Shown piece by piece: positions 14,468 to 59,155 of a stretch of 64,000 nucleotides of DNA; positions within the stretch are counted from its first letter, which is position 1, and the number at the start of each line of letters is the position of its first letter. Both the position numbers and the translations under genes were made by a program. Below the pieces are notes generated by a model. The model did not search any database. It was not told the DNA's origin and was given only the letters and a program-made list of their open reading frames with translations. The DNA comes from a virus (lineage: Duplodnaviria; Caudoviricetes). Location of the stretch: IMG/VR virus record IMGVR_UViG_3300017987_005501. One strand, written 5' to 3'.

Positions 14468-15355
14468 CTATTTTAGAAAAAGGATATCGTAAATTTCATT
14501 TCCATGAGAAGACATATCTATTTCATAGTTTAGAACTGAATCTGCCAAGTTTTTATTTTTCTGAAAGATTTTAATCTTACAAGACCCAGCTTCGCGGAAA
14601 TCTGAAAAAGAAACTTTATTTCCTGAGGAATAGGATATTGTTCTAACTTTTGAAGTCCCCACAATCATGGTATTTTTATTAATGGCCAAACCCCGAACAT
14701 ACCCACCACCCAGATCAAAAACTTCTCCAGACAAACTCCTAATACAAGATTTGGCAGACTCACAAAAATAAATTGTTCCATTTTCCGCTAGAAGAGTATG
14801 GGGTTGATATAACTTCGAATAATATATTTTATGTTCTGATACGCCCTTAATACAGCCATTCATTGAAAAAATCCAATTATCTTTTTTCGGGCCAAAAGCA
14901 GAATAATAAAGATTTCCTCCATATGAAAGAATGGAATTTAGGTGGATTAAATCTTTTGTTGAATCCTCTGCTACAAAGTAATCTGTTTCAACCAAAGTAT
15001 GGATATTAAATTTAATTATTCGATTGGTCCCCGTGGAAGCAATTAAAATATGGTTACGGTCTAAAACTTTTAAATCATGCCCACCTTTGACCTTTTTTAG
15101 TCCTATAAGTTGTTTAACCCTAAAGTTTTTATCAAGCCGGGCTAAAAACGAATCATATTTTTGGACTAAAACGAAGTAATCCCCCTGTATCTTCGTAATT
15201 CCGGTTAACCCAACCATATTTAAGGCAATAAATTCGGGAATAAAAATTTCGTCTACTTGTTTTGTTGCAAGATTTACTTTATATAAAAAGGTATGGGGGG
15301 AAGCAAATTGAAAATTTTCTTTTCTTTTATTTGGAATTGTTACAAGGATTTTCAT
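14468..15355 (-). CDS. Beta-propeller protein, DUF4915/TIGR03032-like
   Basis: HLNSI, L.QPH, LYFCES-like and GYVRGLA motifs. Confidence 0.55.
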   Translation of the reverse strand: MKILVTIPNKRKENFQFASPHTFLYKVNLATKQVDEIFIPEFIALNMVGLTGITKIQGDYFVLVQKYDSFLARLDKNFRVKQLIGLKKVKGGHDLKVLDRNHILIASTGTNRIIKFNIHTLVETDYFVAEDSTKDLIHLNSILSYGGNLYYSAFGPKKDNWIFSMNGCIKGVSEHKIYYSKLYQPHTLLAENGTIYFCESAKSCIRSLSGEVFDLGGGYVRGLAINKNTMIVGTSKVRTISYSSGNKVSFSDFREAGSCKIKIFQKNKNLADSVLNYEIDMSSHGNEIYDILFLK

Positions 15356-15945
15356 AGTAAGTCAGATTCTTCCATTCTCGCTGTGAGTTTCTTTATTGTC
15401 TTCCAGGACATTCTTACATAGGAAGGAAAATTAGGATAAAGTTTTTCCAAAAATTTCATAGTATGAACGTCTCCAGGATAACCTGAACATCTAATACCAT
15501 GATTTATTAAAGCATTATCTCTAGAAACTTTTGCTAAGATAGAAGCAGCCATACATGTTAAGTAATTAGAATCTGCTTTGTGTTCCGCAATAATCTCTGT
15601 ACCTGGAACTTCTATCATCTTTTTGTACTTGTGAGGAACAGGATGGGGGCAATCTACAAAAACCTTATCTGGGGAGAATTTTTTAATTAAGTTTTTAGAA
15701 TAATTTGCTTCCAGTTGAAGTAAATTACCCGAATCAATTTCTTGGGGAGAAATTTCTTTAATTTCATAAAAATCAAGAATCTCTACTAGTTTATCGAAAA
15801 GTTTTTGTCTTTTTGGTTTAGGAATTTTTTTAGAATCGTTTAAGCCTAATTCTTTTAGTTTTTCTTCGGAAGTTACTCCGGCAATAGCAATGTGTAACGA
15901 CCCTAATACGCAACCTTTTCCAGCTTCATCAATGCCAGCTAACAT
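15352..15945 (-). CDS. rnhB: Ribonuclease HII (archaeal-like)
   Basis: GIDEAGKG, DSKK, EHKAD, AASILAKVSRD, SGYP.D and VR.SW.T. Confidence 0.92.
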   Translation of the reverse strand: MLAGIDEAGKGCVLGSLHIAIAGVTSEEKLKELGLNDSKKIPKPKRQKLFDKLVEILDFYEIKEISPQEIDSGNLLQLEANYSKNLIKKFSPDKVFVDCPHPVPHKYKKMIEVPGTEIIAEHKADSNYLTCMAASILAKVSRDNALINHGIRCSGYPGDVHTMKFLEKLYPNFPSYVRMSWKTIKKLTARMEESDLL

Positions 15946-15991
15946 GAAACAACCCTTTCTTTTTAAATCTAATACGAAAGGGTTTTAAAAC

Positions 15992-16531: not shown

Positions 16532-16533
16532 TT

Positions 16534-17406
16534 TTAGTCATTATCGTCTTCAGGAGACTTAAATCTCTCGAGATCCTTGCTTTCTTTTTCTTCTTTTTTC
16601 TCCTCTTCCTCAACAAATTGTTCGGGAGTCATAATAATTGAAGAATCCCCGCCTGCACGCAAAACAATTTGGTTTAGGAGGGATACTATTTTTTCTTTTT
16701 CTGTCTCTTCGCAGATTCCTTCAAACAAGTCATCAATTTTTGTAAAGATGTTTGCATTAGTCCCATTAATAATTAACATAATGTAGTCGCGAATATCTTT
16801 ACGCCTTTTTTCCTCATCAAGTTCATTTATAGTATCAAAAACTAAATTTAATACCGTTTTGAAGTTGAAAGGGGAATTCGCTGTTTTCGAATCATAGATA
16901 AACCGGACGGCATCTAAAACTGACCCTTCGCTGATTTGCGGACAATATTTTTCTGCTAATTTTTCAAACGCAACTTTTTTAGATGCTCTTTTATTATAGT
17001 AGTATGAAACTTCCCTGAGAATTGGGAAGACGTTAGAACTATAATAAATATTAGCTACCGCACTTAAACTAGCAATCCTAGACATTTTTCCACTTACACC
17101 TTTGTCCAAGTTAAATTTTCTATTCTGCTCTAGCATATAGTCAGTATAGAAGTTTGGGCGGTCATGGTTAAGAAGATTAATATTAACCCCAACGTCGGAA
17201 TAAGGAGTTAATGGGACTAATTCCTCTGGTGCCCTTTGTTGTAACCCCCCAATTGGGAAGACAACGCTTACTTTTTGTATTTGTGGATGAACACCAGCGA
17301 CAATTCCCACATAAGGTGAAACTTGTCGATCTGAAATAAACCATTTAACAGGTTGGCCGATTGCAAAGTCTTCGGCAGCTACAGTCATGGGAAAAAGTGC
17401 TGGCAT
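16534..17406 (-). CDS. Hypothetical protein with SH3-like N-terminus
   Basis: GQPVKW...YVGIV..V....KV.V.FP...PEEL; KxAS-type motifs. Confidence 0.65.
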   Translation of the reverse strand: MPALFPMTVAAEDFAIGQPVKWFISDRQVSPYVGIVAGVHPQIQKVSVVFPIGGLQQRAPEELVPLTPYSDVGVNINLLNHDRPNFYTDYMLEQNRKFNLDKGVSGKMSRIASLSAVANIYYSSNVFPILREVSYYYNKRASKKVAFEKLAEKYCPQISEGSVLDAVRFIYDSKTANSPFNFKTVLNLVFDTINELDEEKRRKDIRDYIMLIINGTNANIFTKIDDLFEGICEETEKEKIVSLLNQIVLRAGGDSSIIMTPEQFVEEEEKKEEKESKDLERFKSPEDDND

Positions 17407-17408
17407 TT

Positions 17409-17666
17409 CTAGTCCTCGCTTTTATGTCTAATTTCTTCGGATTCTAGTTGTAAAGCATCTCTCACTGTTTTAATGATCACTTCGTTAATCAAAAAGCCGT
17501 TATAACGAAGATGCCGAAGAATCTCGCTTTCTAATAAAGGAGAATCGTTAGCCTTTAAGTCCTCGATAATCTGCTGAATTCTTTCTGTTAAGGCAGAAAT
17601 ATCTTCAGTTATTGTATTAATCATAATATCGGTGGCGAGTCGGCTAATTCGGCTAGAAAATTTCAT
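17409..17666 (-). CDS. Small hypothetical protein
   Basis: 85 aa, translationally coupled to the upstream gene. Confidence 0.65.
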   Translation of the reverse strand: MKFSSRISRLATDIMINTITEDISALTERIQQIIEDLKANDSPLLESEILRHLRYNGFLINEVIIKTVRDALQLESEEIRHKSED

Positions 17667-18061
17667 TATTTCTCAGAGAGTTTTTTCATTAGTTTAGAGA
17701 GTTTCTTGCCATCAGCCGCATCCTTAAAGCGGTCTGTATTTAGGTCACGGACTTCGTATCCTGGTTTATGCTTTCTTTCGTATTCCTTAAGAACTTCTTG
17801 CTCTTCAACGGGATTTTCGAAAGACTTCATATATTCTTCGTCTTCATCACTAATATAGGCACCTGCTTCATCATAACGTTTCATAAAAGAAGCTTCGTCC
17901 TTATCTCCCATCAGCCATTTACCTTGCTTCTCGAGAGCTTCTAGATTATCGCTAACTTCGTCGATAAGCTTAGCAAGGACAAGACGATCTGCTTCGCTAA
18001 GCTTCCCATTTTTCTCAACTTCGCTTGCGATTTTGTCTAGTTCGGTTGTAAAACGTTTCAT
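17666..18061 (-). CDS. Probable head protein, paralog A (WLMGD.DE family)
   Basis: Colinear with 18083..18538: IA.EVEK, WLMGD.DE, DE.YMK.FEN, VRDLNT. Confidence 0.75.
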   Translation of the reverse strand: MKRFTTELDKIASEVEKNGKLSEADRLVLAKLIDEVSDNLEALEKQGKWLMGDKDEASFMKRYDEAGAYISDEDEEYMKSFENPVEEQEVLKEYERKHKPGYEVRDLNTDRFKDAADGKKLSKLMKKLSEK

Positions 18062-18082
18062 TTTGTGTCTCTCTCCTTAAAA

Positions 18083-22603: not shown

Positions 22604-22930
22604 TTACTCCATTTCATCAAACAACGATAATCCTAAAATTTCGTCGTCATCGTCTTTGGTCTTCTTTTTGAAAAACTTTTTTTTGCGAGCGACTTTTTCA
22701 TCGTTAGGGGTTCCAAGAGCTTGTAATCGTAGAAGAGCCTGTTTACTAATTCCTAGATTTCTTAAATTAAGAGAAGCCGCCCCCCGAATCTCTTCAAATC
22801 TAAGATCGCGCGAGATAGCAATTACATCTCTATAAGCCTTTTGAATCCCCTCAAATTTTTGAATTATATCAATTTGCTCATGTTCAATAAAAGCTAAAAT
22901 ATCTTCTAAATCCTTATTTTTTCTAGTCAT
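22604..22930 (-). CDS. Hypothetical protein
   Basis: 108 aa between terL and portal. Confidence 0.7.
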   Translation of the reverse strand: MTRKNKDLEDILAFIEHEQIDIIQKFEGIQKAYRDVIAISRDLRFEEIRGAASLNLRNLGISKQALLRLQALGTPNDEKVARKKKFFKKKTKDDDDEILGLSLFDEME

Positions 22931-39044: not shown

Positions 39045-41687
39045 ATGGCAAAAAAGAAAAAAGAATTGGAATCAGCAACTAGCAAAGCGAAATCAAAGAT
39101 TGCAGGGAAGATTGATGAGGATTACGTAGATCTTTCAGGTAGTTTTCAAAGAAACTACGATGTAATCAATTCTGGGTCAGTTATTATTAATAAAGTAATC
39201 GGATGCGGAGGCATTCCTAGAGGGAGAATTACTGAAATATTCGGCCCGCCTAGCAGTGGAAAGTGTTTGGTAGGGGATTCTCTTCTTTTTACCCCACAGC
39301 AAGGAATTATAAAAATAGAGAAATTATATCATTCTCTAAAGGATAAACCGGGTCCGGATTCAGCAGTGGAATACCAGGAAAAGATTCTTGGAAAGGATGG
39401 TATTAAAACTACCTCACATTTTTATAATGGAGGCGTTAAAAAAACCAAAAAAATTAAATCTAGATATGGTTACGAGGTTGAAGGGACCCGGGTACATCCT
39501 ATTCTTGTAATGGAAAAATCTGGAAAACAGGTTTGGAGAAAATTAAAGGATGTAAAAAAAGGGGACTATATTTGTATTCAGAGAAATCAGCAATGTTTTG
39601 GAAAAGAATATATAAAATTAGATTGGGAATATAAAAAAGAATCCAGATGGGAAACTAGCACCAAGAAATATAAAATTCCTACTTCTATTGATGAGAAGTT
39701 AGCTTCTTTCTTAGCTTATGTTATAGCAGAAGGAACAACAACATATAAAACTTCTATGGGAATTTCACAAAAAGAAACTGAAGTTGCAAATATTATTAAA
39801 AAATTAGCAAAAAGTCTTTTTGGAAAAGAATTGGTTCTAAAAAAAGAATCTCTTAAGGATTATAATTTTAGTTCGAAACAAATTAGGTCCTTTTTATATG
39901 AAGCGTTAGGGGTTAATTATGTTAAATCGAATAAAAAGGAAATTCCAGATCTTATTCTTCAATCCCCCAAATCTGTTCAACAAGCGTTTCTTCGTTCTTA
40001 TTTCGAAGCAGAGGGATCAGTAACAAGCGACTGGGTTGAAATTTCTTCAGCGAGTAAGTGGTTGGTTCACCAATTACAGGTAATGCTTCTTAACCTAGGA
40101 ATTATTGCTAACCAACGAATTATTCATAATTCCGCGACAAACAGTTCAAACCCTGTTGAAAGAGACTACTATAGTCTTTGTTTAACGGGAAATAATATTA
40201 ACATCTTTGCTAAAGAAATTGGTTTTGAATCCACACGGAAGACACAAAAACTCGATTCCTTAGTAAAACAACGTAATTCTTTAATGGAAAGATCTAATGT
40301 CGAATCTATTCCATACCAAAAAGAGTTAGTCCTTGCTTTTAAGGATGAAGTGATTAGCGAGCAAGGGACAGGCCGAGGGGGGAATTTCCCTCGAAAGGGC
40401 TTTAAAAATGTATATGGAAATAATCTCGTTAAAAGATTAGAGGCTATTAAATACCGGGGGGATAATCTATCTTATCTGACCTGGAAAAGAATAAAAGAAC
40501 AAGCTCCAAAGGAACATCAGGAATTAAATTCTTTTTCTAAGATTGAGCGAAATATTGAAAACCAATTCTTTTATGATCTAGTAACAGAAATTACAGAATC
40601 GGAAGCTCAAGTTTATGATTTAACTATTCCAGATGGGCATAATTTTACATCAAATGGAATTATTTCGCATAATACGACACTGGCTACCTCTATCTGTATC
40701 CAAGCACAAAGAGAAGGCCATTCTTGTTTATATCTGGATTACGAACATGCTTTTGATCCTAGTTATGGAAAAGCAATTGGGCTAGACTTAGATCCCAATA
40801 AATTTGCACTGTATCAACCCAACTTTTTAGAAAAAGGTCAAGAACTAATTACAAGAGCACTAGCAACCCATACTCTAGTGAAGTCTACAGGGGCTAAAAA
40901 ACAAATCCCAGATAATGAAAGAGGAATTTGGATTGATCAAAAGAAGGGTATTGGCATTGGGGTCCCAGTAGTTATTATAATTGACTCTGTTGCAGCCTTG
41001 ATTCCAAAGAAGGAATACGAAGGCGAACATGATACAATGGAAATCGGGCTCTTACCTAGATTATTGTCAAGGTATCTAAGAAAGCTCGTAAGCCTTATTA
41101 AAGCTTCCAATTGTGCGATTGTTTTAGTTAATCAAGAAAGAACTAACATTAAAATGGGTCCTTTTGCTGCCGCAGGACCTGATTATGAAACTACTGGCGG
41201 TAAGGCAGTTAAATTTTATGCTAGTGTAAGGCTAAGATTAAAGTTGAAGAAAAAGGAAAAAGCTCGCGTCTTTAATGAGATTCAAGGAACAAAGGAAGAA
41301 CTTCCTATCCAGAATGTTATTAAATGTACAGCTGTTAAAAATAAGGTGGGAATGCCCTATAGAACTGGGGATTTCGTAATCCGCTTTGGGGAAGGGGTTG
41401 ATAATGTCCGTAGCATTGTTGACATTGCTATCAATGCTGGAATTATTAATAAAGGTGGGGCCTGGTTTGATTATAAATCTCTAGTAGATGAGGCCCACAA
41501 TTTTAGGGTTCAGGGAATGGAGAAAGTTCGAGATATCGTAATTGAAAAAGATTACCTTATTGACGAATTACAAGAAAGGCTAGAATCCTATTTTAATCAG
41601 GGCGATAAGAAGGAAACAGCCTCGGACCTAGAAAAAATGGAAGACATTGAATTAATTAGCGAAGAATATGGGGACGATGACGATTAA
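39045..41687 (+). CDS. recA: RecA with intein
   Basis: GGIPRGRITEIFGP.SSGK|TTLA, D.EHA.DP.Y, DSVAAL.PK.E.EG, NQER, TTGGKA.KFYASVRL, KNKV. Confidence 0.95.
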   Translation: MAKKKKELESATSKAKSKIAGKIDEDYVDLSGSFQRNYDVINSGSVIINKVIGCGGIPRGRITEIFGPPSSGKCLVGDSLLFTPQQGIIKIEKLYHSLKDKPGPDSAVEYQEKILGKDGIKTTSHFYNGGVKKTKKIKSRYGYEVEGTRVHPILVMEKSGKQVWRKLKDVKKGDYICIQRNQQCFGKEYIKLDWEYKKESRWETSTKKYKIPTSIDEKLASFLAYVIAEGTTTYKTSMGISQKETEVANIIKKLAKSLFGKELVLKKESLKDYNFSSKQIRSFLYEALGVNYVKSNKKEIPDLILQSPKSVQQAFLRSYFEAEGSVTSDWVEISSASKWLVHQLQVMLLNLGIIANQRIIHNSATNSSNPVERDYYSLCLTGNNINIFAKEIGFESTRKTQKLDSLVKQRNSLMERSNVESIPYQKELVLAFKDEVISEQGTGRGGNFPRKGFKNVYGNNLVKRLEAIKYRGDNLSYLTWKRIKEQAPKEHQELNSFSKIERNIENQFFYDLVTEITESEAQVYDLTIPDGHNFTSNGIISHNTTLATSICIQAQREGHSCLYLDYEHAFDPSYGKAIGLDLDPNKFALYQPNFLEKGQELITRALATHTLVKSTGAKKQIPDNERGIWIDQKKGIGIGVPVVIIIDSVAALIPKKEYEGEHDTMEIGLLPRLLSRYLRKLVSLIKASNCAIVLVNQERTNIKMGPFAAAGPDYETTGGKAVKFYASVRLRLKLKKKEKARVFNEIQGTKEELPIQNVIKCTAVKNKVGMPYRTGDFVIRFGEGVDNVRSIVDIAINAGIINKGGAWFDYKSLVDEAHNFRVQGMEKVRDIVIEKDYLIDELQERLESYFNQGDKKETASDLEKMEDIELISEEYGDDDD
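39264..40673 (+). mobile_element. LAGLIDADG intein (470 aa) in the RecA Walker A (GK|T)
   Basis: Starts CLVGDS, block B GTRVHP, LAYVIAEG and FEAEGSV, ends ISHN with +1 Thr. Confidence 0.93.
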
Positions 41688-47179: not shown

Positions 47180-48415
47180 ATGGCAAAATTTAAGATTAAA
47201 AAAGAAGCATTATTAGATAACTTAAATCTAGCTTCTCTTGCGATAAATCGAAGGGAAGAAGATATTACAAGTAACTTTGTTTTTAAGGTTGAGGATGAAA
47301 AACTTGTAATTTTAGCAACTGATAATACTTCAATTGCAAAAGTAAAGGTTGGAAAAATTAGTCTAGAGGGCGATGATAATGAATCCTTTTCTTTTACCTT
47401 AAAAGCTCAAAAAGTTTTAGGGTTGTTAGGGACCTTAAAAAAGGATAACGAAGTCGAGTTTAATTTTAATAAGGCAGATATGAATGTCGTTATTAATGAA
47501 ACTTATGATTTTCCTTCTCTTGATCCAGACGATTTCCCAGAATTTAATAGTGAAATTGAAAAGGCAGAGTCTATTTCGGAAATAAAAATTGATGCATTGA
47601 GTAATGCCCTAAAATATATTAATGGGTTTATTGGGAATGACCCTCAAGGCCGTCCAGAATTAACTATTGGTTTAATTAAGGATAATACTTTCTTGGCGAG
47701 TAATGGAAAAACCTTTGGGGTATATGAATCTAAGGACCTTAAAGCAGATGGGTTTGAAGTAAGCTACAACGTTATTGGAAATATCCAGAAGTTTACTAAG
47801 GGTTTTGAAACCCCTATTGTTGTTGAGCCTAAAGATAAAAATAAGGACGACGACTCTAAGGACGACGACTCTAAGGACGACGACTCTAAGGACGACGACG
47901 GAGCGGTTGTCCCCTCTAAAAAGATAAAGCTACTGAAAAGTTCTAACTTTTTCATTATTGCTTCCCCCGACGAGTTAAACTACTATGGGTTTAGAAAGTG
48001 CGACTATAAATTCCCAGCTCAAAAGCTTCAAACGCAAATTGAGAAGGGAAAGGACGCAGAAACAAAATGCAAAATTTCTCGAGTTGAACTTTCGGAAGTC
48101 ATTAACCGTTTATCTTTCTGTATCGATGAAACAAGCAATAGGATGTCTTTTGTATTAACTGGGGATTCAGACGAGGCAGAGTTAGAAATCTCTGTTATTG
48201 GTTCCCATAAAAGGACAACTACAGAAAAAATGAAGGTCTCAAGACTTTCAGGCGAAGAGGATATTACTTTTAGCCTAAACTTTAACCACTTAACTAAAGT
48301 TTTACCCCTTTATGACAGCCCTGAAATAATCCTATCAGAAAATAAAGCTATTATGTTATCAGACGAACTTGACGACCACAATCTTTATGGGATGATTGCA
48401 GTTTTAAGGAGTTAA
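47180..48415 (+). CDS. dnaN: DNA polymerase III beta-type sliding clamp
   Basis: Three-domain length; L.I.ATD; FP; L...L.R; I.FN...L pattern of DnaN. Confidence 0.75.
   Translation: MAKFKIKKEALLDNLNLASLAINRREEDITSNFVFKVEDEKLVILATDNTSIAKVKVGKISLEGDDNESFSFTLKAQKVLGLLGTLKKDNEVEFNFNKADMNVVINETYDFPSLDPDDFPEFNSEIEKAESISEIKIDALSNALKYINGFIGNDPQGRPELTIGLIKDNTFLASNGKTFGVYESKDLKADGFEVSYNVIGNIQKFTKGFETPIVVEPKDKNKDDDSKDDDSKDDDSKDDDGAVVPSKKIKLLKSSNFFIIASPDELNYYGFRKCDYKFPAQKLQTQIEKGKDAETKCKISRVELSEVINRLSFCIDETSNRMSFVLTGDSDEAELEISVIGSHKRTTTEKMKVSRLSGEEDITFSLNFNHLTKVLPLYDSPEIILSENKAIMLSDELDDHNLYGMIAVLRS
47842..47899 (+). repeat. In-frame 15-bp tandem repeat (about 3.9 copies) encoding KDDDS
   Basis: (taaggacgacgactc)x3 plus taaggacgacgac, DNA-perfect. 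Confidence 0.95.
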
Positions 48416-49519: not shown

Positions 49520-50239
49520 ATGCTGGCTAAAGAAAAAATAGTTCAAAGGATAGAGAAGCTTAAATTAAAGTACCTTAAAAAATATTATAAAAAATATTTT
49601 TCGAGAATTCCCGAGAACTGTAAATATAACCACCAGCAAAAGCAATTGCGTAAAACAACTGGGGAAGTTCTAATTGACCCTGACACGTTAAAACCAATTA
49701 CTGTTGGTTTATGTATGATGGGTTGTAATAAACCGGATGATTGGAAGGGCAGCTTCTGTATGTATAAAGAAACAGCAGAAAGCTGCCCTTTCTTTACCGA
49801 TAAATACAGTAAGACCCAAATCCGAAGTAAATTTGAGGAAGAGCTACGTAACCGTAATATACGGGCCGAAAAGTATAAAGACTTACATGAGTTGTATTTA
49901 ATAATAAAACCAGGGGAAGAAGACGAAGACCTCTTTAGAGTTGATAATCTTTTATCCGAAATAGATTCGTTACAAAACGAAGAGCTAACTGATTTAAGGG
50001 AAATGATAATAGCTGAGGTCAAGGCAAGGGACTTGGAACAAAAAGTTACTCCAAATTTTGATTTCCAATCTTTTTTTAATATAATAGAAACGGACGATCT
50101 TAGGAAATTAGCTCAACTAATTATATCTAGTCTTGAAAAAAGAGACGATTCAGATATAGACCAGCACCTTCTAAATAAAGATATCTGGAAAACGGAAGAT
50201 CCCGCCGAGGAAGATTCCCTTTTTGAAAACGGACTTTAA
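49520..50239 (+). CDS. Hypothetical protein with four Cys in the N-terminal half
   Basis: NCKYNH...LCMMGC...FC...ESCPFF. Confidence 0.7.
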   Translation: MLAKEKIVQRIEKLKLKYLKKYYKKYFSRIPENCKYNHQQKQLRKTTGEVLIDPDTLKPITVGLCMMGCNKPDDWKGSFCMYKETAESCPFFTDKYSKTQIRSKFEEELRNRNIRAEKYKDLHELYLIIKPGEEDEDLFRVDNLLSEIDSLQNEELTDLREMIIAEVKARDLEQKVTPNFDFQSFFNIIETDDLRKLAQLIISSLEKRDDSDIDQHLLNKDIWKTEDPAEEDSLFENGL

Positions 50240-50836: not shown

Positions 50837-51157
50837 ATGTACGGATACTACGCAACAAAAAAACCAATTAAAGAAGTAGTCCGGGAATTAGAGAAAGACT
50901 TTAAAGGCCAATATCAAATAACGGCTACGCAGGTCTATGACTGGACAATTAAACACTACCCTTATAATGCATATCTTTTAGCCCCCGAAATAATTGGTTA
51001 CTTTTGGAGGTATGTTAAAAATCATAATATCAATGTTTTAGCTTCCACCAAATCTTCCAGGATTAAGAGTAGTATAATTAATAGACTAAATAAAATTAGT
51101 AAAGTTCTGGAAAGATTAAATGAGCACGCAAGAGAAAATAAAATCATTCATCGATAA
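50837..51157 (+). CDS. Hypothetical protein
   Basis: 106 aa. Confidence 0.65.
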   Translation: MYGYYATKKPIKEVVRELEKDFKGQYQITATQVYDWTIKHYPYNAYLLAPEIIGYFWRYVKNHNINVLASTKSSRIKSSIINRLNKISKVLERLNEHARENKIIHR

Positions 51158-51824
51158 AGCCCACCGCAAGCTTCTTAGATCCCAAGAAGCATTATCCTAC
51201 TTAGAAAAGCGTGGAGTTACTAAAGAGCAAATTGAGAGATATAAATTTGGTTTCTCTTTAACCAAAAAAATGGGTATCCCCGAATTTGATAAATGGTCTT
51301 TTAATGGGGATCGGTTAAAAAATCGCCTAATTTTCCCAATTAAAAATTCTCTAGGGGATTATAAAGCTTTTGGAACAAGGCTTAATAATAAAGATTCTGG
51401 GGGATACCAGTATTTTTATTTTGATAAGATAGAAGCAACCTTCTTTGGGATGGAAAACTTAAAATCTATTTGGGAAAAAGGGTACTGTTATATAACAGAA
51501 GGTATTTTTGATCACCTAGTTTTAGAACATTTATACGATAACTGTATTTGCCCTCTTACCGCAAACTTGAAACAAGGCAGACTTAAGTTTTTAAGTAGGT
51601 TTGCGGATACAATTATTTTTGCGTTTGATGCTGACAGTACCGGTATTGAGAAAATTAAGCAAATTTCTCAAAACGAGGACTTGAACCATTTAACCTTTTA
51701 TCAATTTTCAAACTACAGAAGTGTCGGGGAAAATGTTAAAGACTTAAATAACATATGGCAGGTACTCGGGGAGAGTAAATTTAAGGATTTTATCGAAAGA
51801 CAAAATGATTTATTTGTTTTTTAG
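51120..51824 (+). CDS. dnaG: DnaG-type primase catalytic core (no zinc-binding domain)
   Basis: YLEKRG, RL.FPI, AFGTR, ITEG.FD, FAFDAD..G, KDLN. Confidence 0.85.
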   Translation: MSTQEKIKSFIDKAHRKLLRSQEALSYLEKRGVTKEQIERYKFGFSLTKKMGIPEFDKWSFNGDRLKNRLIFPIKNSLGDYKAFGTRLNNKDSGGYQYFYFDKIEATFFGMENLKSIWEKGYCYITEGIFDHLVLEHLYDNCICPLTANLKQGRLKFLSRFADTIIFAFDADSTGIEKIKQISQNEDLNHLTFYQFSNYRSVGENVKDLNNIWQVLGESKFKDFIERQNDLFVF

Positions 51825-53424: not shown

Positions 53425-53488
53425 AATTATGCTGGGGACAAAAGCAGTATAATAACTAATTACATGTTTGCTGTAAAGGAAACCTAGC

Positions 53489-54019
53489 ATGAAAGATTTA
53501 TCCAAAGCTAAATGGACCGATAGCGATAAGCGGAATTGGAAAGAAACTATCAAAAGTTTTTATAATATAGAACACGTAACTTCAATTCAAAAATATAATC
53601 CATCAGATACAATTTTCCTCACCCGTTGTTCCTCTGCCAAATCCGGAAAAGTCCGTGGGACCCCTTCCCAAATGTATTGGGGGGCTATTAATAAAAAGTT
53701 CTACCGTATGCTGGATAAGTTTGAGTTATACTACGGGGTATGTAGCGACTTTCTAGGGGTTGTTTTTAAGGACGAAGAATTTGATAACTATGATGTTCAT
53801 CCCGCCGATATTACAGACGAGGACAAGAGAAAACTTGGAGAAATAATTAGTACTAAAATAAAGGAAAAGGGCTTTAAAAATGCCTATTTCTTTAATACTA
53901 GCCCTCTTTTATCGAGGCCCTATTTTGAGATGCTATATTATTCACAAATTCCTGTAAAATATTTCTCGGATTTACAAATTGTTAGGGAAGCATTTGAAGT
54001 TGAAGATGATTTACTCTAG
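53489..54019 (+). CDS. DUF6884-like protein
   Basis: FLTRCSSAK...P..MY.G...V.S...G....D.YD matches my recollection of the DUF6884 pattern; needs HMM confirmation. Confidence 0.5.
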   Translation: MKDLSKAKWTDSDKRNWKETIKSFYNIEHVTSIQKYNPSDTIFLTRCSSAKSGKVRGTPSQMYWGAINKKFYRMLDKFELYYGVCSDFLGVVFKDEEFDNYDVHPADITDEDKRKLGEIISTKIKEKGFKNAYFFNTSPLLSRPYFEMLYYSQIPVKYFSDLQIVREAFEVEDDLL

Positions 54020-54028
54020 GAGGTAGTT

Positions 54029-55507
54029 ATGTGTTCCATTTTTGGATTTTTTAAACCGTCCGGTGCTATTGGGGACTCATTCGAAGAAAATGGCTTCAAA
54101 ATCCCCTGGAAAAGCTTATTCCATAAAATCACAGAAAATTCTAGCGAGAGAGGCAAGGATGCCTTCGGTTATGTCAAATTTGGAAGAGGCGCACCCATTG
54201 TAAATAAGTGGTCGTTGAAAAATTATTCAACACATCAAAAAGAAAATGCATACTACGGGTGGGGTGTTGACGAAGACTCGTGGGGACTTTTAGCAAATAA
54301 TAGGGCAGAACCAGAAACAGAATTCCAAAAAGATTTTCAGGAAAAGGATTTTCAACCTTTTACCAGCCCTACCCTTAGTGGAAATACTGTCCATGTTGTG
54401 CATAATGGGTTGGTAAGTAACGATGCAGAAATCCGGGAAAGATTAAAATTAAACCTTGACACGGAAACTGATTCAGCAGTTCTTCCCTATGTTTTTCGCC
54501 AAGCTACCTATTTTCAGGGATTTTTAAGGGATATTAAATACAAACTAAAAGGTAGCTATGCCCTTGCCGTATATAATACCCTAAGCCCAGACAAGCTCTT
54601 TCTCTATAGAGATTTCAACCCGTTAACTGTTCTATATAATAAACAAGAAAATGTATATATCTTTGCTTCCTTTGAAAAATACGTAAGAGAAGCTATTTCT
54701 AAATGCAAGGGAAACCAACTTAATTGGGCAACCATAGATATCCCTCCCTATTCTGGAGCTGTAATTTCTAAAAAAGGAATTGAAATAGCATCTATCGACT
54801 CCGTTGACGATTCTCAAAAGAAAGAACCGGTCCAAGAACTTTTCTTTGGAAAAAAGGCATTAATCGTAATGAGTGGGGGCCTTGATAGCGTTGTTGCTGC
54901 TATTATGATGAAAAATATGGGGTTTAAATTAGATTTCTTACATTTCTCCTACGAAGGGAGAGCACAGGAAAAAGAAATCTCTGCTGTTAAAGACCTAGCA
55001 GAACATTTTAATGCTAATCTTGAAATTTTCAAATTCGACCTATTTAAAAATTTAGGAGGAAGCAGCTTAGTTGACAGAAATATTGACTTAGCTGATGGGA
55101 AAGAGGGGGCGGAACATGCTAAAGATTGGATTCCCGCCCGAAATACTGTCTTTACCGCTATTGCCGCTGCATACGCAGATAGGTTTAAGTACGATGCCAT
55201 TGTCTTAGGATTAAATTTATCAGAGGGGATGACCTTCCCGGACAATACAACGGAATATTTTGAAACTTTCTCTAGGGTTCTCAGTCTCGGGACAATGCAA
55301 AGACCTAAAATTATTTGTCCCTTAAGTAATATGACTAAACATGAGTTAGTATTATACGGTATGAGAGAAGACCCAGATGCTATAAAACTTAGCTATAGTT
55401 GCTATACAGGAAACGATAAACACTGTGGCACATGTGCAAGCTGCTACCTTAGAAAAATTGCTTTCAAGATGAACAACTTAAACGATCCGGCTGATTTTGA
55501 GGATTAA
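54029..55507 (+). CDS. gat-queC: Glutamine amidotransferase class II-QueC fusion (Gat-QueC)
   Basis: N-terminal MCSIFG, NRAEP, VHNG, TDS; QueC part SGGLDS, PARN, SCY...HCGTCASC. Confidence 0.92.
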   Translation: MCSIFGFFKPSGAIGDSFEENGFKIPWKSLFHKITENSSERGKDAFGYVKFGRGAPIVNKWSLKNYSTHQKENAYYGWGVDEDSWGLLANNRAEPETEFQKDFQEKDFQPFTSPTLSGNTVHVVHNGLVSNDAEIRERLKLNLDTETDSAVLPYVFRQATYFQGFLRDIKYKLKGSYALAVYNTLSPDKLFLYRDFNPLTVLYNKQENVYIFASFEKYVREAISKCKGNQLNWATIDIPPYSGAVISKKGIEIASIDSVDDSQKKEPVQELFFGKKALIVMSGGLDSVVAAIMMKNMGFKLDFLHFSYEGRAQEKEISAVKDLAEHFNANLEIFKFDLFKNLGGSSLVDRNIDLADGKEGAEHAKDWIPARNTVFTAIAAAYADRFKYDAIVLGLNLSEGMTFPDNTTEYFETFSRVLSLGTMQRPKIICPLSNMTKHELVLYGMREDPDAIKLSYSCYTGNDKHCGTCASCYLRKIAFKMNNLNDPADFED

Positions 55508-55510
55508 ATT

Positions 55511-56731
55511 ATGACAGAGAAGAAACCAGAAAAGAAACAAAAACAACACGGAGTTGCCGAAGATATGAATACTCCACCGGAGCTAAGCGACACGAAGAAG
55601 CATACTCTTTATAAAACTTTGGAAGTCGCAAGAGAAAAAGTCACAACGGAAATTAAAGATAAATGTGAAGGGAAGAAGAAGTTCGTTATTTGGATTGCAC
55701 AAATCGACCCCGATGCCATTGGGTCCGCTATGGTTATTAGGTACTACCTAATGGTTTGCTTAAATATCGACCCTAGTTATATCCAAATTTATTATGGTGG
55801 GGCCGTTTCCCACGCACAAAACCGGTGCATCTTTAATATTTTCGAGTTAGATAATTTATTCCAGCGAATATCTTGCGAAGAAGTGCCTCATAAGGAAGAG
55901 GAGGAAATTTGGTTTTTAGTAGATTCTAACGACCTTAATGATTCCAGGTTTTCTGGCATGGACTTATCAGATATTGATATTATTATTGATCATCATAGGA
56001 TATCTGCTAAACAAAAAACCGAGGATAAAATTTATTTTATCGATTCAATTGGGTCTGCTTCAACTTTAACAGTTGAACTCTTGGAAACAGAATGTTCTGG
56101 TTTAGAAAATTTACCTTCTGATTCCGACCGAGAGAAAGTTTTAACCCTAGCATCAATTGGAATTCGAAATGACACAAACAACTTTACGTCAGCATTAACC
56201 CATACGAGGGACACAGAAGCACTTAATAAATTAATTCCTTTTATTGATAATGATTTAACAATCCAAGTTGAAAATTACCCCCTGGATAATAACTATTTCT
56301 CTATACTATCTAATGTCCTTGAAACAAGAAAAGTTAAAGGAATTAGAGCAATCGCCTCCGCTGGCTATATTTACGAGGAGGATGGGGACCAATTAGCAGA
56401 AGCTTGTAATCTGTTAATTCGGGAAGCCCGCGTTAGCATTGCTGTTGTTTGGGGGATTATTTTAGAAACGGGAAGGGTGCGACTTAGTATTCGAAGCAAA
56501 GATGTTTCTCTAAACCTTGATTCAAAATTAAAAGAGGTTTTCGAAGGAAAAGGAGGCGCAAAACAAACTAAGGGGGTTGCAGAAGGTGGAGTACATTTAG
56601 ATATGGGAGATTTCGTACCTTCTGGGCCACTTAAGGATGATGAGACGTATAAGGAATATTGGAGAAACATTATAGAGGCAAATATTACAGGTAAAATTTC
56701 ACTTATGTTAAAAGACAGTGGAGAAGATTAA
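55511..56731 (+). CDS. DHH/DHHA1 family phosphoesterase
   Basis: DPDAIGS, LVDS, IDHH, GSAST, GI.NDT, SIRS, GKGGA. Confidence 0.85.
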   Translation: MTEKKPEKKQKQHGVAEDMNTPPELSDTKKHTLYKTLEVAREKVTTEIKDKCEGKKKFVIWIAQIDPDAIGSAMVIRYYLMVCLNIDPSYIQIYYGGAVSHAQNRCIFNIFELDNLFQRISCEEVPHKEEEEIWFLVDSNDLNDSRFSGMDLSDIDIIIDHHRISAKQKTEDKIYFIDSIGSASTLTVELLETECSGLENLPSDSDREKVLTLASIGIRNDTNNFTSALTHTRDTEALNKLIPFIDNDLTIQVENYPLDNNYFSILSNVLETRKVKGIRAIASAGYIYEEDGDQLAEACNLLIREARVSIAVVWGIILETGRVRLSIRSKDVSLNLDSKLKEVFEGKGGAKQTKGVAEGGVHLDMGDFVPSGPLKDDETYKEYWRNIIEANITGKISLMLKDSGED

Positions 56732-57584
56732 AATGAATTTAAGATACTATGGTTTCCAGCCCGAAATTAAAGAATACGTTGATAATACGCTCCGCCCAGG
56801 GGTGTATAAGACAGAACTTCCCTATATAATTTCATTTATTGGGGAAGCTAACGTTTCAAAAGATGGTCTTTGTGACTTAGCCGACATCCATGGAAGCGAG
56901 GCTTTTATTGAAGGAAATATGCTTCATTTTATCGCAGAGTTCCCAGATAATATTTCGCCTCACGAAATGGTTTTATATCAAAGAAGATTTATTACTATTG
57001 TAAAACAAAAAATTGAGGGCTTAGGAGATATTAAACTAACACAAGGTGGGGACGATTTATATTATAAAGGAAGGAAACTAAGCGTATCAATTGTTGCTCC
57101 TTCGACTGTCGGCACCTATCTTATGCACGCAGCATTTAATATCACAAACAAGTGTAAGCTTAACATCTCTTGGCTGGACGAATTCATAGATACGGATTAT
57201 GAATCATTAGTTAACCTATCCTTGGATTTAATGGGACAATTTAAGAATGAACTAGATTCGATAAATTATGCTGTACATAAGGTTAAACCCATTTATCCAG
57301 ATGGGCATTTCCTTAACCTAGAAAAAGCAATTGAAAACGCAAGTTTTAGAGTTTCTAATTTACAAAAGATCATCAGAGACTTATATAAGGAAGTTACCTC
57401 AACCTTGCCTTACGAAGAAAAGAAAGATAAAGCCTTGGAGCTTATTAGTCTTTTTCCCCTAAATAAAACAGAGGAATTAAAAGAAGCTTTGTCCTGTTGT
57501 AATGATGATCGCCATTTAGTCGCTTTTGCAGAAGCACTAATTATTAAGCTGCTAAGAGAATCAAAAATCGTCTCTAACTATTAA
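56718..57584 (+). CDS. DUF366 family protein (class II aaRS/lipoate-ligase-like fold) with C-terminal extension
   Basis: LRP, I.SF.G...V, DL.D, MLHFI.E, YQR, GDDLY..GRKLSVSI, H...N. Confidence 0.75.
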   Translation: MEKIKMNLRYYGFQPEIKEYVDNTLRPGVYKTELPYIISFIGEANVSKDGLCDLADIHGSEAFIEGNMLHFIAEFPDNISPHEMVLYQRRFITIVKQKIEGLGDIKLTQGGDDLYYKGRKLSVSIVAPSTVGTYLMHAAFNITNKCKLNISWLDEFIDTDYESLVNLSLDLMGQFKNELDSINYAVHKVKPIYPDGHFLNLEKAIENASFRVSNLQKIIRDLYKEVTSTLPYEEKKDKALELISLFPLNKTEELKEALSCCNDDRHLVAFAEALIIKLLRESKIVSNY

Positions 57585-57598
57585 GAAGGGTAATTTAT

Positions 57599-59155
57599 AT
57601 GAGTCATTTCTTTAATATTAAGAAGAAAGATATTGGGTACAGCCGGTTTGGAGAAATTGAATGTGTACACGAAAATGTAATTACCCCTTGTTATATTCCC
57701 GTTGTACCTTTTTTAGACTCTTCGGACGATTCAATCAGGACTGAAAATATAACAAAAAGTTTTCCCAAGAAGCCGGGTTTATCCCAGGTTTTGTTGCATA
57801 ATAAAGATGGGAAGCTAAGTAAAAGCCAAAAAGAAAAGTTATCGACAAAAATTCATGAAACTCACCCACAATATGAGGGTGCTTTGTTTCTGGATAGTGG
57901 AGGGTTTAAGTTAATTAGAATGGATATTGAAGATATGCCTTTTAAGGAAGTTTTTGATATCCAGAAAGATGTTGGAGGCGACATCTTCTTCACTTTGGAT
58001 TATCCTATTATTAAGGATATGCCTTTTCCAATGCAGATTAAAAGGGCTAATAAAAGCCTGGATAACGCCATTAAAGCACTTCAATACCGTAAAGACCTTT
58101 GGGGGACTGCAACTGATAAACCTATTGTTTATGTTGCAGTGCATGGCACTTCTACGCAGTTTGTTAGGGACTATTTGGAGGAATTCTTCCGCCTCCTTAA
58201 AAAACACGATCTAGAAGATGTTCCATTTGGTTTCGCTCATGGGTCCTTGGTCCCCTTAAAGCATCGAAGGTATCTAGTATTGGATTTCCTTTACGAGACC
58301 AAAATGGTGTTGAAAGAAAAAGACATGTTAGACAAGGTCCCAATCCACGCATTTGGGATCTCGGGATCTTTAATTCCTCACCTTGGGCTATTAGGAATTG
58401 ATACCTTTGATAGTGCCTCTTATTTACTTTCGGCCGGGAACCACCAAATCTTTGATCCTGAAACATTAGAGACAATTAGTTTTATGGAAAAAGAAGATTC
58501 CGTCGAAAAAGGAAAGTATTGTAAGAGAAGAGGGATCGACCCCACGAAGTTTAAGAATCTAAAAGAAGCGTGGGGCTGTGATTGTATGTGGTGCGAGAAA
58601 GTAAAAAATGCATATCCTCCTGCGAAGGAAAATCTTGTTGATTTCGCACGAATTATCCAAAGAGTTGTGCCTCAAGAAGGGGGTTGGAGAGAGGATAAGG
58701 ATTTCTTACAATATCTAAAAGACCGAAATTTCGCATTTATGGACTATTTATATGTTCATATGATTTGTCACAACCTGACAGTCACTAATAATCTTGTTTC
58801 TAAAATGCATGAACATCTTAGGGCTGGGACATATGAAGGATTTTTCTTTGACTTCCTTAATAAAGTCCACCAAGGGAATTCTAAAAAACAAGTTAAGCAG
58901 ATAAGATTCCTCAATTCTATTTTGAAGGACCAACCAAAATTTTATGATCTAGCAGCAAAACACGTTCCCCAAATTAAAGGTAGGGAGCTACTAGAAACTA
59001 ACTCATCTCCTAAGAGACCAAAACTCGTGGACTTTAAAATGGACACTTCTGGAATCGGTTTGCACCCAGGGAAACATAAAAAAGCGGAGAAGAAAATTGC
59101 AGCAGAGAGAAGAATGAAAAAGGAGCAAACCTATTTTGAAGATGACCTTCTTTAA
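57599..59155 (+). CDS. dpdA: TGT-family guanine transglycosylase (DpdA-like)
   Basis: TP.Y.P, LFLDSGGF, TLDYP, VHG, HAFG, DTFDS, zinc site CDCMWC...HNL; no PUA domain. Confidence 0.85.
   Translation: MSHFFNIKKKDIGYSRFGEIECVHENVITPCYIPVVPFLDSSDDSIRTENITKSFPKKPGLSQVLLHNKDGKLSKSQKEKLSTKIHETHPQYEGALFLDSGGFKLIRMDIEDMPFKEVFDIQKDVGGDIFFTLDYPIIKDMPFPMQIKRANKSLDNAIKALQYRKDLWGTATDKPIVYVAVHGTSTQFVRDYLEEFFRLLKKHDLEDVPFGFAHGSLVPLKHRRYLVLDFLYETKMVLKEKDMLDKVPIHAFGISGSLIPHLGLLGIDTFDSASYLLSAGNHQIFDPETLETISFMEKEDSVEKGKYCKRRGIDPTKFKNLKEAWGCDCMWCEKVKNAYPPAKENLVDFARIIQRVVPQEGGWREDKDFLQYLKDRNFAFMDYLYVHMICHNLTVTNNLVSKMHEHLRAGTYEGFFFDFLNKVHQGNSKKQVKQIRFLNSILKDQPKFYDLAAKHVPQIKGRELLETNSSPKRPKLVDFKMDTSGIGLHPGKHKKAEKKIAAERRMKKEQTYFEDDLL

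What the first reader, a model, noticed from the sequence alone, without database searches (positions are those of the whole stretch)
15352..59155. Shared extreme C-terminal E-[ED]-[DS]-D-L-L tail on RNase HII, DUF6884-like protein and TGT/DpdA
Seen: RNase HII ends MEESDLL*, 53489..54019 ends EVEDDLL*, and the TGT ends YFEDDLL*. The three proteins are otherwise unrelated. The primase ends QNDLFVF*, resembling the bacterial QxxLF clamp motif. Known: archaeal and eukaryotic RNase H2 dock on the sliding clamp via a C-terminal motif, and T4 clamp partners use C-terminal (S/T)LDFL(F/Y/L). Inference: EDDLL docks on the phage's own beta clamp (47180..48415), which would make base modification replication-coupled. 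I do not know of a description of this for DpdA enzymes.
Basis: partly seen in the sequence, partly recalled or inferred. Interest (0 to 1): 0.8.

Follow-up and report, generated by a model that had tools for sequence, protein, structure and literature searches.

The report
Shared clamp-docking tail on phage enzymes
In an uncultured jumbo phage with its own bacterial-type sliding clamp, three unrelated DNA-acting enzymes end in the same short acidic peptide, which also forms the clamp-gripping plug of the phage's clamp loader, so they are probably tethered to the replication clamp.

Summary
RNase HII ends EESDLL, the DUF6884-like protein VEDDLL and the TGT-family transglycosylase FEDDLL. About 0.001-0.04 such C-termini are expected by chance in 75 proteins. 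The three tails use different codons and stop codons, so this is not a DNA repeat.

The tail is conserved as E-x-D-L-[L/F/I/V] in nearly all orthologs at 49-86% identity; one RNase HII ortholog ends RELNL. It is absent from the next-closest cellular homologs.

Four lines point to the phage beta clamp (47180-48415):
- The tail resembles the bacterial clamp-binding motif QL(S/D)LF.
- In RNase HII, which is of archaeal type, it sits where archaeal homologs carry their PCNA-binding PIP box.
- The phage's own clamp-loader delta subunit reads ESDDLL at the position aligned with E. coli delta AMSLF (Leu73/Phe74), the plug that enters the clamp pocket.
- In a related phage, delta and all three tails end in LF instead of LL.

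A co-fold of clamp plus TGT tail gave only weak support: score 0.37, best control 0.09.

Caveats: Glu replaces the canonical Gln, binding is untested, and the TGT is closer to arcTGT than to known DpdA. The scan made the same note on an overlapping window of this genome, not on other DNA.

Verdict: a probable new variant of a clamp-binding motif on new clients.

The parts
15352..15945 (-). Archaeal-type RNase HII gene. The C-terminal tail EESDLL is encoded at 15355-15372 and the stop at 15352-15354.
   Evidence: Pfam RNase_HII 117.7 bits and TIGR00729 152.6 bits, both above cut-off. Tail verified. Closest cellular homologs are archaeal and end in a PIP box.
53489..54019 (+). DUF6884-like protein with a CxxxK motif, possibly ArcS2-like. 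The tail VEDDLL is encoded at 53999-54016.
   Evidence: DUF6884 hit in all 5 orthologs (best E 1.2e-6), but the window copy is below the gathering score. The model has pLDDT 89 with residues 174-176 under 50. Best structural matches are AF0587 (2q07; Z 8.6, rmsd 3.1, 112 aligned) and YaaA (5caj; Z 6.9, rmsd 3.5, 127 aligned).
57599..59155 (+). TGT-superfamily transglycosylase. A Lys-rich helix (residues 496-511) is followed by the tail YFEDDLL, encoded at 59132-59152.
   Evidence: Pfam TGT 63.3 bits. The model has pLDDT 86.7 with residues 512-518 under 50. The best fold match is arcTGT 1iq8, E 2e-18. Orthologs end EEIDLF, EELDLL and EEVDLI.
47180..48415 (+). Divergent phage beta sliding clamp (DnaN), the proposed receptor. 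It carries an acidic KDDDS-repeat insert at about residues 220-241.
   Evidence: DNA_pol3_beta N-terminal domain 48.6 bits, above cut-off. Only 158 library relatives at E<=1e-3. Pocket-lining segments are recognisable against E. coli beta: R152/L155/T172/G174/L177 correspond to R158/L161/S174/G176/F179. Clamp pLDDT is 86 in the co-fold.
60142..61137 (+). Clamp-loader delta subunit (HolA). The internal element ESDDLL (residues 66-71, nt 60337-60354) aligns with the E. coli delta clamp-binding plug.
   Evidence: TIGR01128 holA 157.5 bits, cut-off 80. MAFFT alignment with E. coli HolA places ESDDLL under QAMSLF. Coordinates verified.
59189..60145 (+). Clamp-loader delta-prime-like AAA+ subunit.
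   Evidence: Pfam DNA_pol3_delta2 82.4 bits.
51120..51824 (+). DnaG-type primase core with a conserved tail QNDLFVF (51801-51821). This is a second, Gln-containing clamp-motif-like tail.
   Evidence: DNAG_N and Toprim hits. Orthologs end QNNLFIF and QNILFIF.
54029..57584 (+). Gat-QueC, DHH and DUF366 genes of the same deazaguanine cluster. None carries the tail.
   Evidence: Pfam hits. Their C-termini lack the motif.

Best explanation
The C-terminal peptide E-x-D-L-[L/F/I] is a short linear clamp-binding motif. It is preceded by more acidic residues and, in the TGT, by a Lys-rich helix.

It is a Gln-less, acidic variant of the bacterial QL(S/D)LF motif. Its last two hydrophobic residues plug the hydrophobic pocket between domains II and III of the phage-encoded beta clamp (47180-48415). 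The phage's own clamp-loader delta subunit uses the same pocket through the identical sequence ESDDLL.

Three DNA-acting enzymes are thereby tethered to clamps left on newly replicated phage DNA:
- an archaeal-type RNase HII, whose ancestral PCNA-binding PIP box has been exchanged for this motif;
- a TGT-family base-exchange enzyme;
- a DUF6884/ArcS2-like protein predicted to act on a base in DNA.

Ribonucleotide or primer removal and 7-deazaguanine modification would then follow the fork.

Shown here: the motif, its conservation, its identity with the delta element, its position replacing the PIP box, and its disordered context.

Inferred: physical binding, the phage rather than the host clamp as receptor, DNA as the substrate of the TGT, and coupling to replication.
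For: Motif and statistics.

Not a DNA repeat.

Conservation.
- TGT orthologs (49-62% identity) end EEIDLF, EELDLL and EEVDLI.
- DUF6884-like orthologs (49-70% identity) end EDDLI, EIDLFE, ELDLFE and EEDLI.
- RNase HII orthologs end ESDLV, ENNLF and EQDLF.
- Only the 4 phage-clade members among 120 TGT homologs carry the tail.

PIP replacement: 78 of 115 archaeal-type RNase HII homologs end in a PIP-like motif, and none of the 5 phage-clade proteins does.

Delta identity.
- HolA assignment is above cut-off.
- ESDDLL (phage A) and QSDDLF (phage B) align with E. coli delta QAMSLF.
- Leu73/Phe74 of E. coli delta dock in subsite I of the clamp, and every known partner uses that pocket (PMC11139829; PMC11253446).

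Concerted change: in phage A, delta and the 3 tails end LL. In the related phage B, which has its own clamp and the same gene order, delta and the 3 tails end LF.

Fit to known motif rules (PMC11139829; PMC6511837):
- position 3 prefers Asp;
- position 4 is Leu or Met;
- the last position tolerates Phe, Leu or Ile;
- flanks are usually acidic;
- motifs sit in flexible termini.

Tails are flexible in the models, with pLDDT under 50 at the last 3-7 residues.

Clamp pocket segments are recognisable.

Co-fold, two clamp copies plus the last 35 TGT residues: weak support.
- ipSAE 0.37 (runs 0.37, 0.39, 0.34); best of 3 controls 0.09.
- The runs agree in at least 56% of contacts; partner pLDDT is at least 46.
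- In calibration the mark was reached by 58 of 80 solved complexes and 2 of 110 mismatched pairs.
- At 0.60 or under it was reached by only 7 of the 80 solved complexes and by both mismatches.
- My own alignments were used, and clamp-peptide complexes are solved, so the pass may come from memory.

Carriers are the DNA-acting proteins.
- DUF6884 is described as a YaaA-like DNA binder with CxxxK (PMC11701544).
- The window protein is structurally nearest the DUF5591 protein AF0587.
- DUF5591 is the ArcS2 core that works with DpdA2 to make dG+ in DNA (PMC10516641).
- Gat-QueC, DHH and DUF366 lack the tail.
Against: Position 1 is Glu, not Gln. In E. coli beta, Q-to-E in QLDLF greatly lowers affinity, and delta is the only known natural ligand without Gln (PMC11139829).

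Position 2 is Asp or Ser in the window phage rather than aliphatic.

The co-fold reached only the weak band, and no contacts were reported.

Acidic tails ending in a hydrophobic residue also describe SSB-type and T7-type tails that bind other hubs.

One RNase HII ortholog ends RELNL, a poorer match.

The covariation rests on two genomes. The two phage B contigs are assigned to one genome only because they come from the same sample and share synteny.

The replicative polymerase and its motif were not found, because the whole 283-kb genome could not be scanned.
Confidence: 0.7

Rival explanations
1. The tail is a docking peptide for a different replisome hub, such as SSB, the polymerase or the helicase. 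This would resemble the acidic C-terminal tails of E. coli SSB or of T7 gp2.5 and gp4, which insert a terminal hydrophobic residue and carboxylate into a basic pocket.
For: An acidic run followed by terminal hydrophobic residues. Flexible tails. The co-fold with the clamp was only weak.
Against: The same sequence forms the delta subunit's internal clamp plug, where no free carboxylate exists. Two DUF6884-like orthologs carry an extra Glu after the Phe, so a terminal carboxylate on the hydrophobic residue is not required. In RNase HII the tail replaces a clamp (PCNA) motif. No SSB was identified in the window.
Confidence: 0.12
2. The tail is a clamp-binding motif, but its relevant receptor is the host's beta clamp rather than, or as well as, the phage clamp.
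For: The motif resembles the general bacterial consensus. Phage Mu MuC is a published case of a phage protein using the host clamp (PMC12867686, listed).
Against: The phage encodes its own clamp and loader. The phage delta carries the same sequence and changes together with the tails between phages A and B. Glu at position 1 weakens binding to E. coli beta. The host is unknown.
Confidence: 0.1
3. The tail has no docking role. It could be a degradation or regulation tag, a solubility tail, or a compositional accident of an acid-rich proteome.
For: Many proteins of this phage end in acidic residues. No direct binding data exist.
Against: The specific D-L-[LFI] end is conserved in orthologs while neighbouring residues vary. 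The chance expectation is at most 0.04 per 75 proteins. The tail is identical to the delta plug. It matches no protease tag class that I know of (from my own knowledge).
Confidence: 0.06

Closest known systems
Bacterial beta-clamp-binding motifs (QL(S/D)LF; C-terminal in Pol II and Pol IV; delta subunit AMSLF)
   Same: A five-residue motif in a flexible, acidic terminal region. Asp at position 3, Leu at position 4 and Phe, Leu or Ile at the end. The same sequence is used by the clamp loader's delta subunit.
   Different: Glu replaces Gln at position 1 in all three tails and in the window's delta. Position 2 is often acidic. The clients (TGT-family, DUF6884-like and archaeal-type RNase HII) are not among the known beta-clamp partners listed in PMC11139829.
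Archaeal RNase HII with a C-terminal PIP box binding PCNA
   Same: Homologous enzyme (about 40-46% identity) with the docking peptide at the same extreme C-terminal position.
   Different: Q-x-x-L-x-[DE]-F is replaced by E-x-D-L-[LFV]. The clamp encoded alongside is bacterial DnaN, not PCNA.
Phage 7-deazaguanine DNA modification: DpdA transglycosylases with Gat-QueC or ArcS2 (phage 9g, Vibrio phage nt-1)
   Same: A TGT-family enzyme next to Gat-QueC and an ArcS-core-like protein. The modification is described as post-replicative (PMC10516641).
   Different: No clamp link is described for DpdA. The window TGT is nearer the arcTGT / TGT-DUF5591 fusion proteins (about 30% identity) than any DpdA model, and it had no tblastn match in 50,697 phage records.
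T4 gp45 clamp clients (gp43, gp33, gp55 C-terminal tails) and phage Mu MuC with the host beta clamp
   Same: Phage proteins of unrelated function share a clamp-docking peptide, which couples another process to replication (PMC2988020 and PMC12867686, listed).
   Different: Those cases couple transcription or polymerase to the clamp. Here the clients are a base-modification enzyme pair and RNase HII. The clamp is a phage-encoded beta type, not gp45 or the host clamp.
Eukaryotic PCNA-tethered DNA modification and repair enzymes (Dnmt1, UNG2)
   Same: The concept of replication-coupled base modification or repair through a clamp-binding peptide (from my own knowledge, not tested here).
   Different: Different clamp family, motif and chemistry. 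No homology.

Membership tests
Bacterial beta-clamp-binding motif (CBM) | Short linear motif in a flexible terminal or loop region | tested here: met
   The last 3-7 residues have pLDDT under 50 in models whose folded cores have pLDDT 87-89.
Bacterial beta-clamp-binding motif (CBM) | Gln at position 1 | tested here: not met
   Glu in all three tails and in the window's delta. Gln occurs only in phage B delta and in the primase tails. Q-to-E lowers affinity for E. coli beta (PMC11139829).
Bacterial beta-clamp-binding motif (CBM) | Leu/Met at position 4 and Phe/Leu/Ile at the last position, with Asp favoured at position 3 | tested here: met
   D-L-[L/F/I] in the window's three tails and in all TGT and DUF6884-like orthologs. 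Among RNase HII orthologs the variants are DLV, NLF and one poor match, RELNL.
Bacterial beta-clamp-binding motif (CBM) | Occupies the hydrophobic pocket of the clamp | tested here: inconclusive
   Co-fold gave weak support: ipSAE 0.37, best control 0.09. Runs agree in at least 56% of contacts and partner pLDDT is at least 46. In calibration 58 of 80 solved complexes and 2 of 110 mismatched pairs reached the mark, but at 0.60 or under only 7 of 80 solved complexes and both mismatches did. The pass may come from memory of solved clamp-peptide complexes.
Bacterial beta-clamp-binding motif (CBM) | Same pocket ligand as the clamp loader delta plug (E. coli Leu73/Phe74) | tested here: met
   ESDDLL of the phage HolA aligns with QAMSLF of E. 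coli HolA. HolA assignment: 157.5 bits, cut-off 80.
PIP box (PCNA-interacting peptide) | Q-x-x-[LIM]-x-x-[FY][FY]-type spacing | tested here: not met
   None of the 5 phage-clade RNase HII proteins matches, while 78 of 115 archaeal-type homologs do.
SSB-type acidic C-terminal tip | The terminal hydrophobic residue, with its free carboxylate, is required at the very end | tested here: inconclusive
   Two DUF6884-like orthologs end DLFE, with an extra Glu, and delta uses the sequence internally. No binding test was possible.
DpdA (DNA guanine transglycosylase) | TGT fold with conserved Asp residues and a Cys/His zinc site | tested here: met
   Pfam TGT 63.3 bits. D99, D134, D268, H250 and S272 are invariant and C327, C329, C332 and H391 nearly invariant in 56 homologs. 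The fold matches TGT structures at E 2e-18.
DpdA (DNA guanine transglycosylase) | Groups with a DpdA subfamily rather than with tRNA TGTs | tested here: inconclusive
   The nearest relatives outside the clade are TGT-DUF5591 fusion proteins at about 30% identity. The best NCBIfam hit is archaeal TgtA, far below cut-off. No match in the phage collection. No DpdA reference was compared directly.
DpdA (DNA guanine transglycosylase) | Acts on DNA | not testable with these tools
   Inferred only from the phage context, the Gat-QueC neighbour and the clamp-type tail.
DnaN beta sliding clamp | Family models above cut-off | tested here: met
   PF00712 scores 48.6 bits against a cut-off of 24.4. The C-terminal domain (23.5 against 27) and TIGR00663 (70.7 against 137.65) fall below cut-off, so this is a divergent member.
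DUF6884 / ArcS2 (DUF5591) core | CxxxK motif and family model above cut-off | tested here: inconclusive
   C47-x3-K51 is invariant. PF21818 scores 21.1 bits against 30 for the window copy, although all 5 orthologs hit it. hhalign against DUF5591 is not significant (E 0.028). The best structural match is the DUF5591 protein 2q07 (Z 8.6, rmsd 3.1, 112 aligned). The full PC-x3-KPY-x2-S-x2-H motif is absent.

The most novel reading that the evidence does not exclude
A Gln-less acidic clamp-binding code, E-x-D-L-[L/F/I], is shared by the phage's clamp loader and its clients. It tethers a 7-deazaguanine base-exchange enzyme and its ArcS2-like partner, together with a PIP-to-CBM-converted archaeal RNase HII, to the phage's private beta clamp. 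DNA hypermodification would then follow the replication fork and could be insulated from the host clamp network.
Probability: 0.45. Interest if true: 0.75.

Novelty: new variant of a known kind. Interest (0 to 1): 0.64.

Why it matters
Phage 7-deazaguanine modifications are described as post-replicative insertions by transglycosylases. How some systems reach high or complete guanine replacement before restriction enzymes act remains open.

A clamp tether would give a simple mechanism: the modifying enzymes would ride on clamps left behind the fork. It would be the first clamp-coupled base-exchange system that I could find described, and a prokaryotic-virus parallel to PCNA-tethered Dnmt1 and UNG2.

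The RNase HII case is a clean example of a docking peptide being re-coded (PIP box to beta-clamp motif) when an enzyme moves between replication systems.

The Glu-for-Gln variant, shared with the phage's own delta subunit, suggests that searches based on QL(S/D)LF miss clamp partners. It also suggests that phage clamps may use private specificities.

All of this can be tested directly with peptides and one recombinant clamp.

Tried and rejected
- No whole genome is held for the window, so the rest of the 283-kb contig could not be scanned. The replicative polymerase and its clamp motif were not found. I walked about 16 kb downstream and saw other tails (FEN QQISL, sigma-like RQTSFLRV) but no further E-x-D-L-L carrier.
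- 61172-64000 is not Pol III alpha. It is a class II ribonucleotide reductase with an intein.
- tblastn of the TGT against 50,697 phage records found nothing, and the IMG/VR pattern scan found no relative.
- PHROGs named none of the neighbouring unknown proteins, and no SSB was identified.
- phmmer of delta against the PDB aligned only from residue 82, so the plug was mapped with a MAFFT alignment to E. coli HolA instead.
- Profile-profile comparison of the DUF6884-like family with the DUF5591 domain was not significant (E 0.028, probability 1.8%). The link rests on the structural match only.
- A repeated DNA element as the source of the shared tail was rejected.
- The contig of the 47%-identical clamp P0250 gave no DNA.
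- Mapping of the domain III pocket residues of the clamp was unreliable in the 120-sequence alignment, so only the domain II segment and the C-terminal strand are cited.
- The apparent size swap between pocket residue F179 (phage A, LL tails) and Leu (phage B, LF tails) rests on two genomes and is not used as evidence.

Full report
**What the window is.** The window is part of an uncultured jumbo-phage-like contig; the longest contig carrying the same proteins is 283,534 bp. Identical sequence occurs in sediment and seawater metagenomes from at least three studies. Positions 1 to about 36,000 hold minus-strand virion genes. From about 36,000 onward a plus-strand replication and nucleotide-metabolism module runs as follows:
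- RecA with an intein, SbcCD-like and Cas4-like nucleases;
- a beta clamp (47180-48415), a NYN protein, a DnaG-type primase core and a NucS-like protein;
- a five-gene deazaguanine cluster (DUF6884-like, Gat-QueC, DHH, DUF366, TGT);
- delta-prime, delta (HolA), and a class II ribonucleotide reductase with an intein.

**The observation.** The three C-termini are as reported: EESDLL (RNase HII, 15352-15945, minus strand), VEDDLL (53489-54019) and YFEDDLL (57599-59155). The primase ends QNDLFVF. Among 75 ORF products, E[EDS]DLL occurs four times and three of these are at a C-terminus. The expected number of C-terminal copies is 0.0008 to 0.016, and for the loose pattern P is about 1e-5 or lower. 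The tails are encoded with different Leu codons and three different stop codons, and there is no downstream DNA similarity, so a repeated DNA element is excluded.

**Conservation.**
- The TGT has only three close relatives in 5.8 billion clustered proteins (49-62% identity). They end EEIDLF, EELDLL and EEVDLI. All other hits are about 30%-identical TGT-DUF5591 fusion proteins without the tail.
- The DUF6884-like protein has four orthologs (49-70% identity) ending EDDLI, EIDLFE, ELDLFE and EEDLI.
- The RNase HII clade (58-86% identity) ends ESDLV, RELNL, ENNLF and EQDLF.
- The consensus is E-x-D-L-[L/F/I/V] after further acidic residues, while the preceding linker varies.
- In AlphaFold models the cores are confident (pLDDT 87 and 89) and the last 3-7 residues fall under 50. 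This is the behaviour expected of a docking peptide.

**Where the tail sits in RNase HII.** The enzyme is of archaeal type. Beyond the phage clade its best homologs are DPANN and other archaeal RNase HII at about 40-46% identity. Of these, 78 of 115 end in Q-x-x-[LIMV]-x-x-[FYW], the PCNA-binding PIP box, and none of the five phage-clade proteins does. The phage tail therefore replaces, at the same extreme C-terminal position, a peptide whose known role is clamp docking. The clamp encoded by this phage is bacterial DnaN, not PCNA.

**The clamp loader carries the same sequence.**
- The 331-aa product of 60142-61137 is a full-length HolA (TIGR01128, 157.5 bits, cut-off 80).
- Aligned with E. coli HolA taken from NC_000913.3, its residues 66-71, ESDDLL, fall under E. 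coli Q69-A-M-S-L73-F74.
[quoted passage not shown] This is the same pocket used by every known clamp partner (PMC11139829; PMC11253446).
- So the residues this phage's loader presents to its clamp are the same D-D-L-L that end the TGT and the DUF6884-like protein.

**Concerted change.** A related phage (B) comes from one metagenome sample on two contigs with the same gene order and its own clamp. Its delta has QSDDLF, and its TGT, DUF6884-like protein and RNase HII end EIDLF, EIDLFE and EQDLF. The window phage has LL in all four places and phage B has LF in all four. This is what a shared receptor predicts, but it rests on two genomes. The Glu/Gln exchange between the two delta orthologs also marks the Glu as the counterpart of the canonical Gln.

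**Fit to the known motif.** The consensus is QL(S/D)LF. Published rules allow Phe, Leu or Ile at the end, Leu or Met before it, a preference for Asp at position 3, acidic flanks, and location in flexible termini (PMC6511837; PMC11139829). The tails obey all of these except position 1. Glu replaces Gln, a change that strongly weakens binding to E. coli beta, and delta is the only known natural Gln-less ligand. Position 2 is often acidic here. This is the main sequence-level argument against a canonical motif, and it is why I class the tail as a variant. The primase tail (QNDLFVF; QNNLFIF and QNILFIF in orthologs) keeps the Gln.

**The receptor.**
- The clamp is very divergent: only 158 relatives at E<=1e-3 among 1.84 billion representatives. 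It also carries an acidic KDDDS-repeat insert.
- The pocket-lining domain II segment and the C-terminal strand are still recognisable. E. coli R152, L155, T172, G174 and L177 correspond to R158, L161, S174, G176 and F179.

**The co-fold.** Two clamp copies were folded with the last 35 residues of the TGT, using my own alignments. The verdict was weak support:
- ipSAE 0.37 (runs 0.37, 0.39, 0.34) against a best control of 0.09.
- The runs agree in at least 56% of contacts, and partner pLDDT is at least 46.
- In calibration the mark was reached by 58 of 80 solved complexes and 2 of 110 mismatched pairs. At 0.60 or under it was reached by only 7 of the 80 solved complexes and by both mismatches.
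- Clamp-peptide complexes are solved, so the pass may reflect memory. I treat it as a small increment only.

**Who carries the tail.**
- The TGT model is closest to archaeosine tRNA-guanine transglycosylase (1iq8, E 2e-18). Family models place it in the TGT superfamily but in no tRNA equivalog or DpdA model. 'DpdA' is therefore a contextual guess.
- The DUF6884-like protein keeps the CxxxK motif. Pfam's curators describe DUF6884 as a YaaA-like DNA binder predicted to flip a base (PMC11701544).
- Its model is closest to AF0587 (2q07; Z 8.6, rmsd 3.1, 112 aligned) and to YaaA (5caj; Z 6.9, rmsd 3.5, 127 aligned).
- AF0587 belongs to DUF5591 by profile (E 2.8e-9). DUF5591 is the domain fused to the TGT's nearest cellular relatives. 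It is also the ArcS2 core that, together with DpdA2 of Vibrio phage nt-1, yields dG+ in DNA (PMC10516641).
- The direct profile comparison was not significant.
- The picture is coherent. The two cluster proteins expected to touch polynucleotide carry the tail, and the three expected to make the free base (Gat-QueC, DHH, DUF366) do not.

**Rivals.**
- An SSB-type or T7-type acidic tail binding another hub is weakened in three ways: delta uses the sequence internally, two orthologs carry an extra Glu after the Phe, and the tail replaces a PIP box.
- The host clamp as receptor cannot be excluded.
- A non-docking role is unlikely, given the pattern of conservation.

**Novelty.** No paper in the held library connects DpdA/TGT enzymes with a sliding clamp. 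The jumbo-phage survey and the beta-clamp review list no such clients. The scan itself noted the same idea on an overlapping window of this genome (e1-5374455), not on other DNA.

**Verdict.** This is a real, conserved, shared docking peptide. Most likely (about 0.7) it is a Gln-less variant of the beta-clamp-binding motif that recruits RNase HII and two deazaguanine-pathway enzymes to the phage clamp. Binding and replication coupling remain to be shown.

Noticed in passing
window 51120-51824; L001:1919-2611; L002:1821-2516: The short DnaG-type primase core ends in a conserved Q-N-x-L-F-[VI]-F. It has no zinc finger or helicase-binding domain in this ORF. The tail is a Gln-containing, canonical-looking clamp motif, distinct from the E-x-D-L-L tails.
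   Followed up: partly
window 47180-48415, residues about 220-241; L012:6823-8136: The phage clamps carry an acidic low-complexity insert after domain II: KDDDS repeats in the window and a longer insert in phage B. It is absent from more distant clamps. A 406-aa variant with one repeat fewer exists.
   Followed up: partly
window 22604-22930 (minus strand); L004:2895-3212: A 108-aa protein in the virion module ends GLSLFDEME, and its ortholog ends GLSLFDF. This is a conserved LSLF near the C-terminus that also resembles a clamp motif, in an unexpected gene context.
   Followed up: no
L001:15230-16327; L002:11063-12154: An S1-domain protein of the related phages ends KKIDLSLIK or KKIDLLLI, another clamp-motif-like tail. 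No ortholog was seen in the window.
   Followed up: no
L010:16293-17210 and 17232-17987 (about 12-14 kb beyond the window end): The 5'-3' exonuclease (FEN-like) ends QQISL, and a sigma region-4-only protein ends RQTSFLRV. A dnaX-like AAA+ gene lies just upstream.
   Followed up: partly
window 53489-54019 and 57599-59155: The nearest cellular relatives of the TGT are TGT-DUF5591 fusions, and the DUF6884-like protein is structurally nearest a DUF5591 protein. The phage pair may therefore be a split version of that fusion. Phage B also has a second, 424-aa TGT paralog (L001:16329-17603).
   Followed up: partly
window 39045-41687 and 61172-64000 (continues to about 64,925): Both RecA (880 aa) and the class II ribonucleotide reductase (1250 aa) are interrupted by inteins with LAGLIDADG endonuclease domains.
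   Followed up: partly
window 49520-50239: A Cys-rich 239-aa protein with no family hit ends EEDSLFENGL. Its orthologs end EDIFPEGL and EEIEPDEL, so the tail is acidic but poorly conserved.
   Followed up: no
window 15352-15945: RNase HII sits at the end of the minus-strand virion gene block rather than in the replication module, and this placement is conserved in phage B (L004).
   Followed up: no
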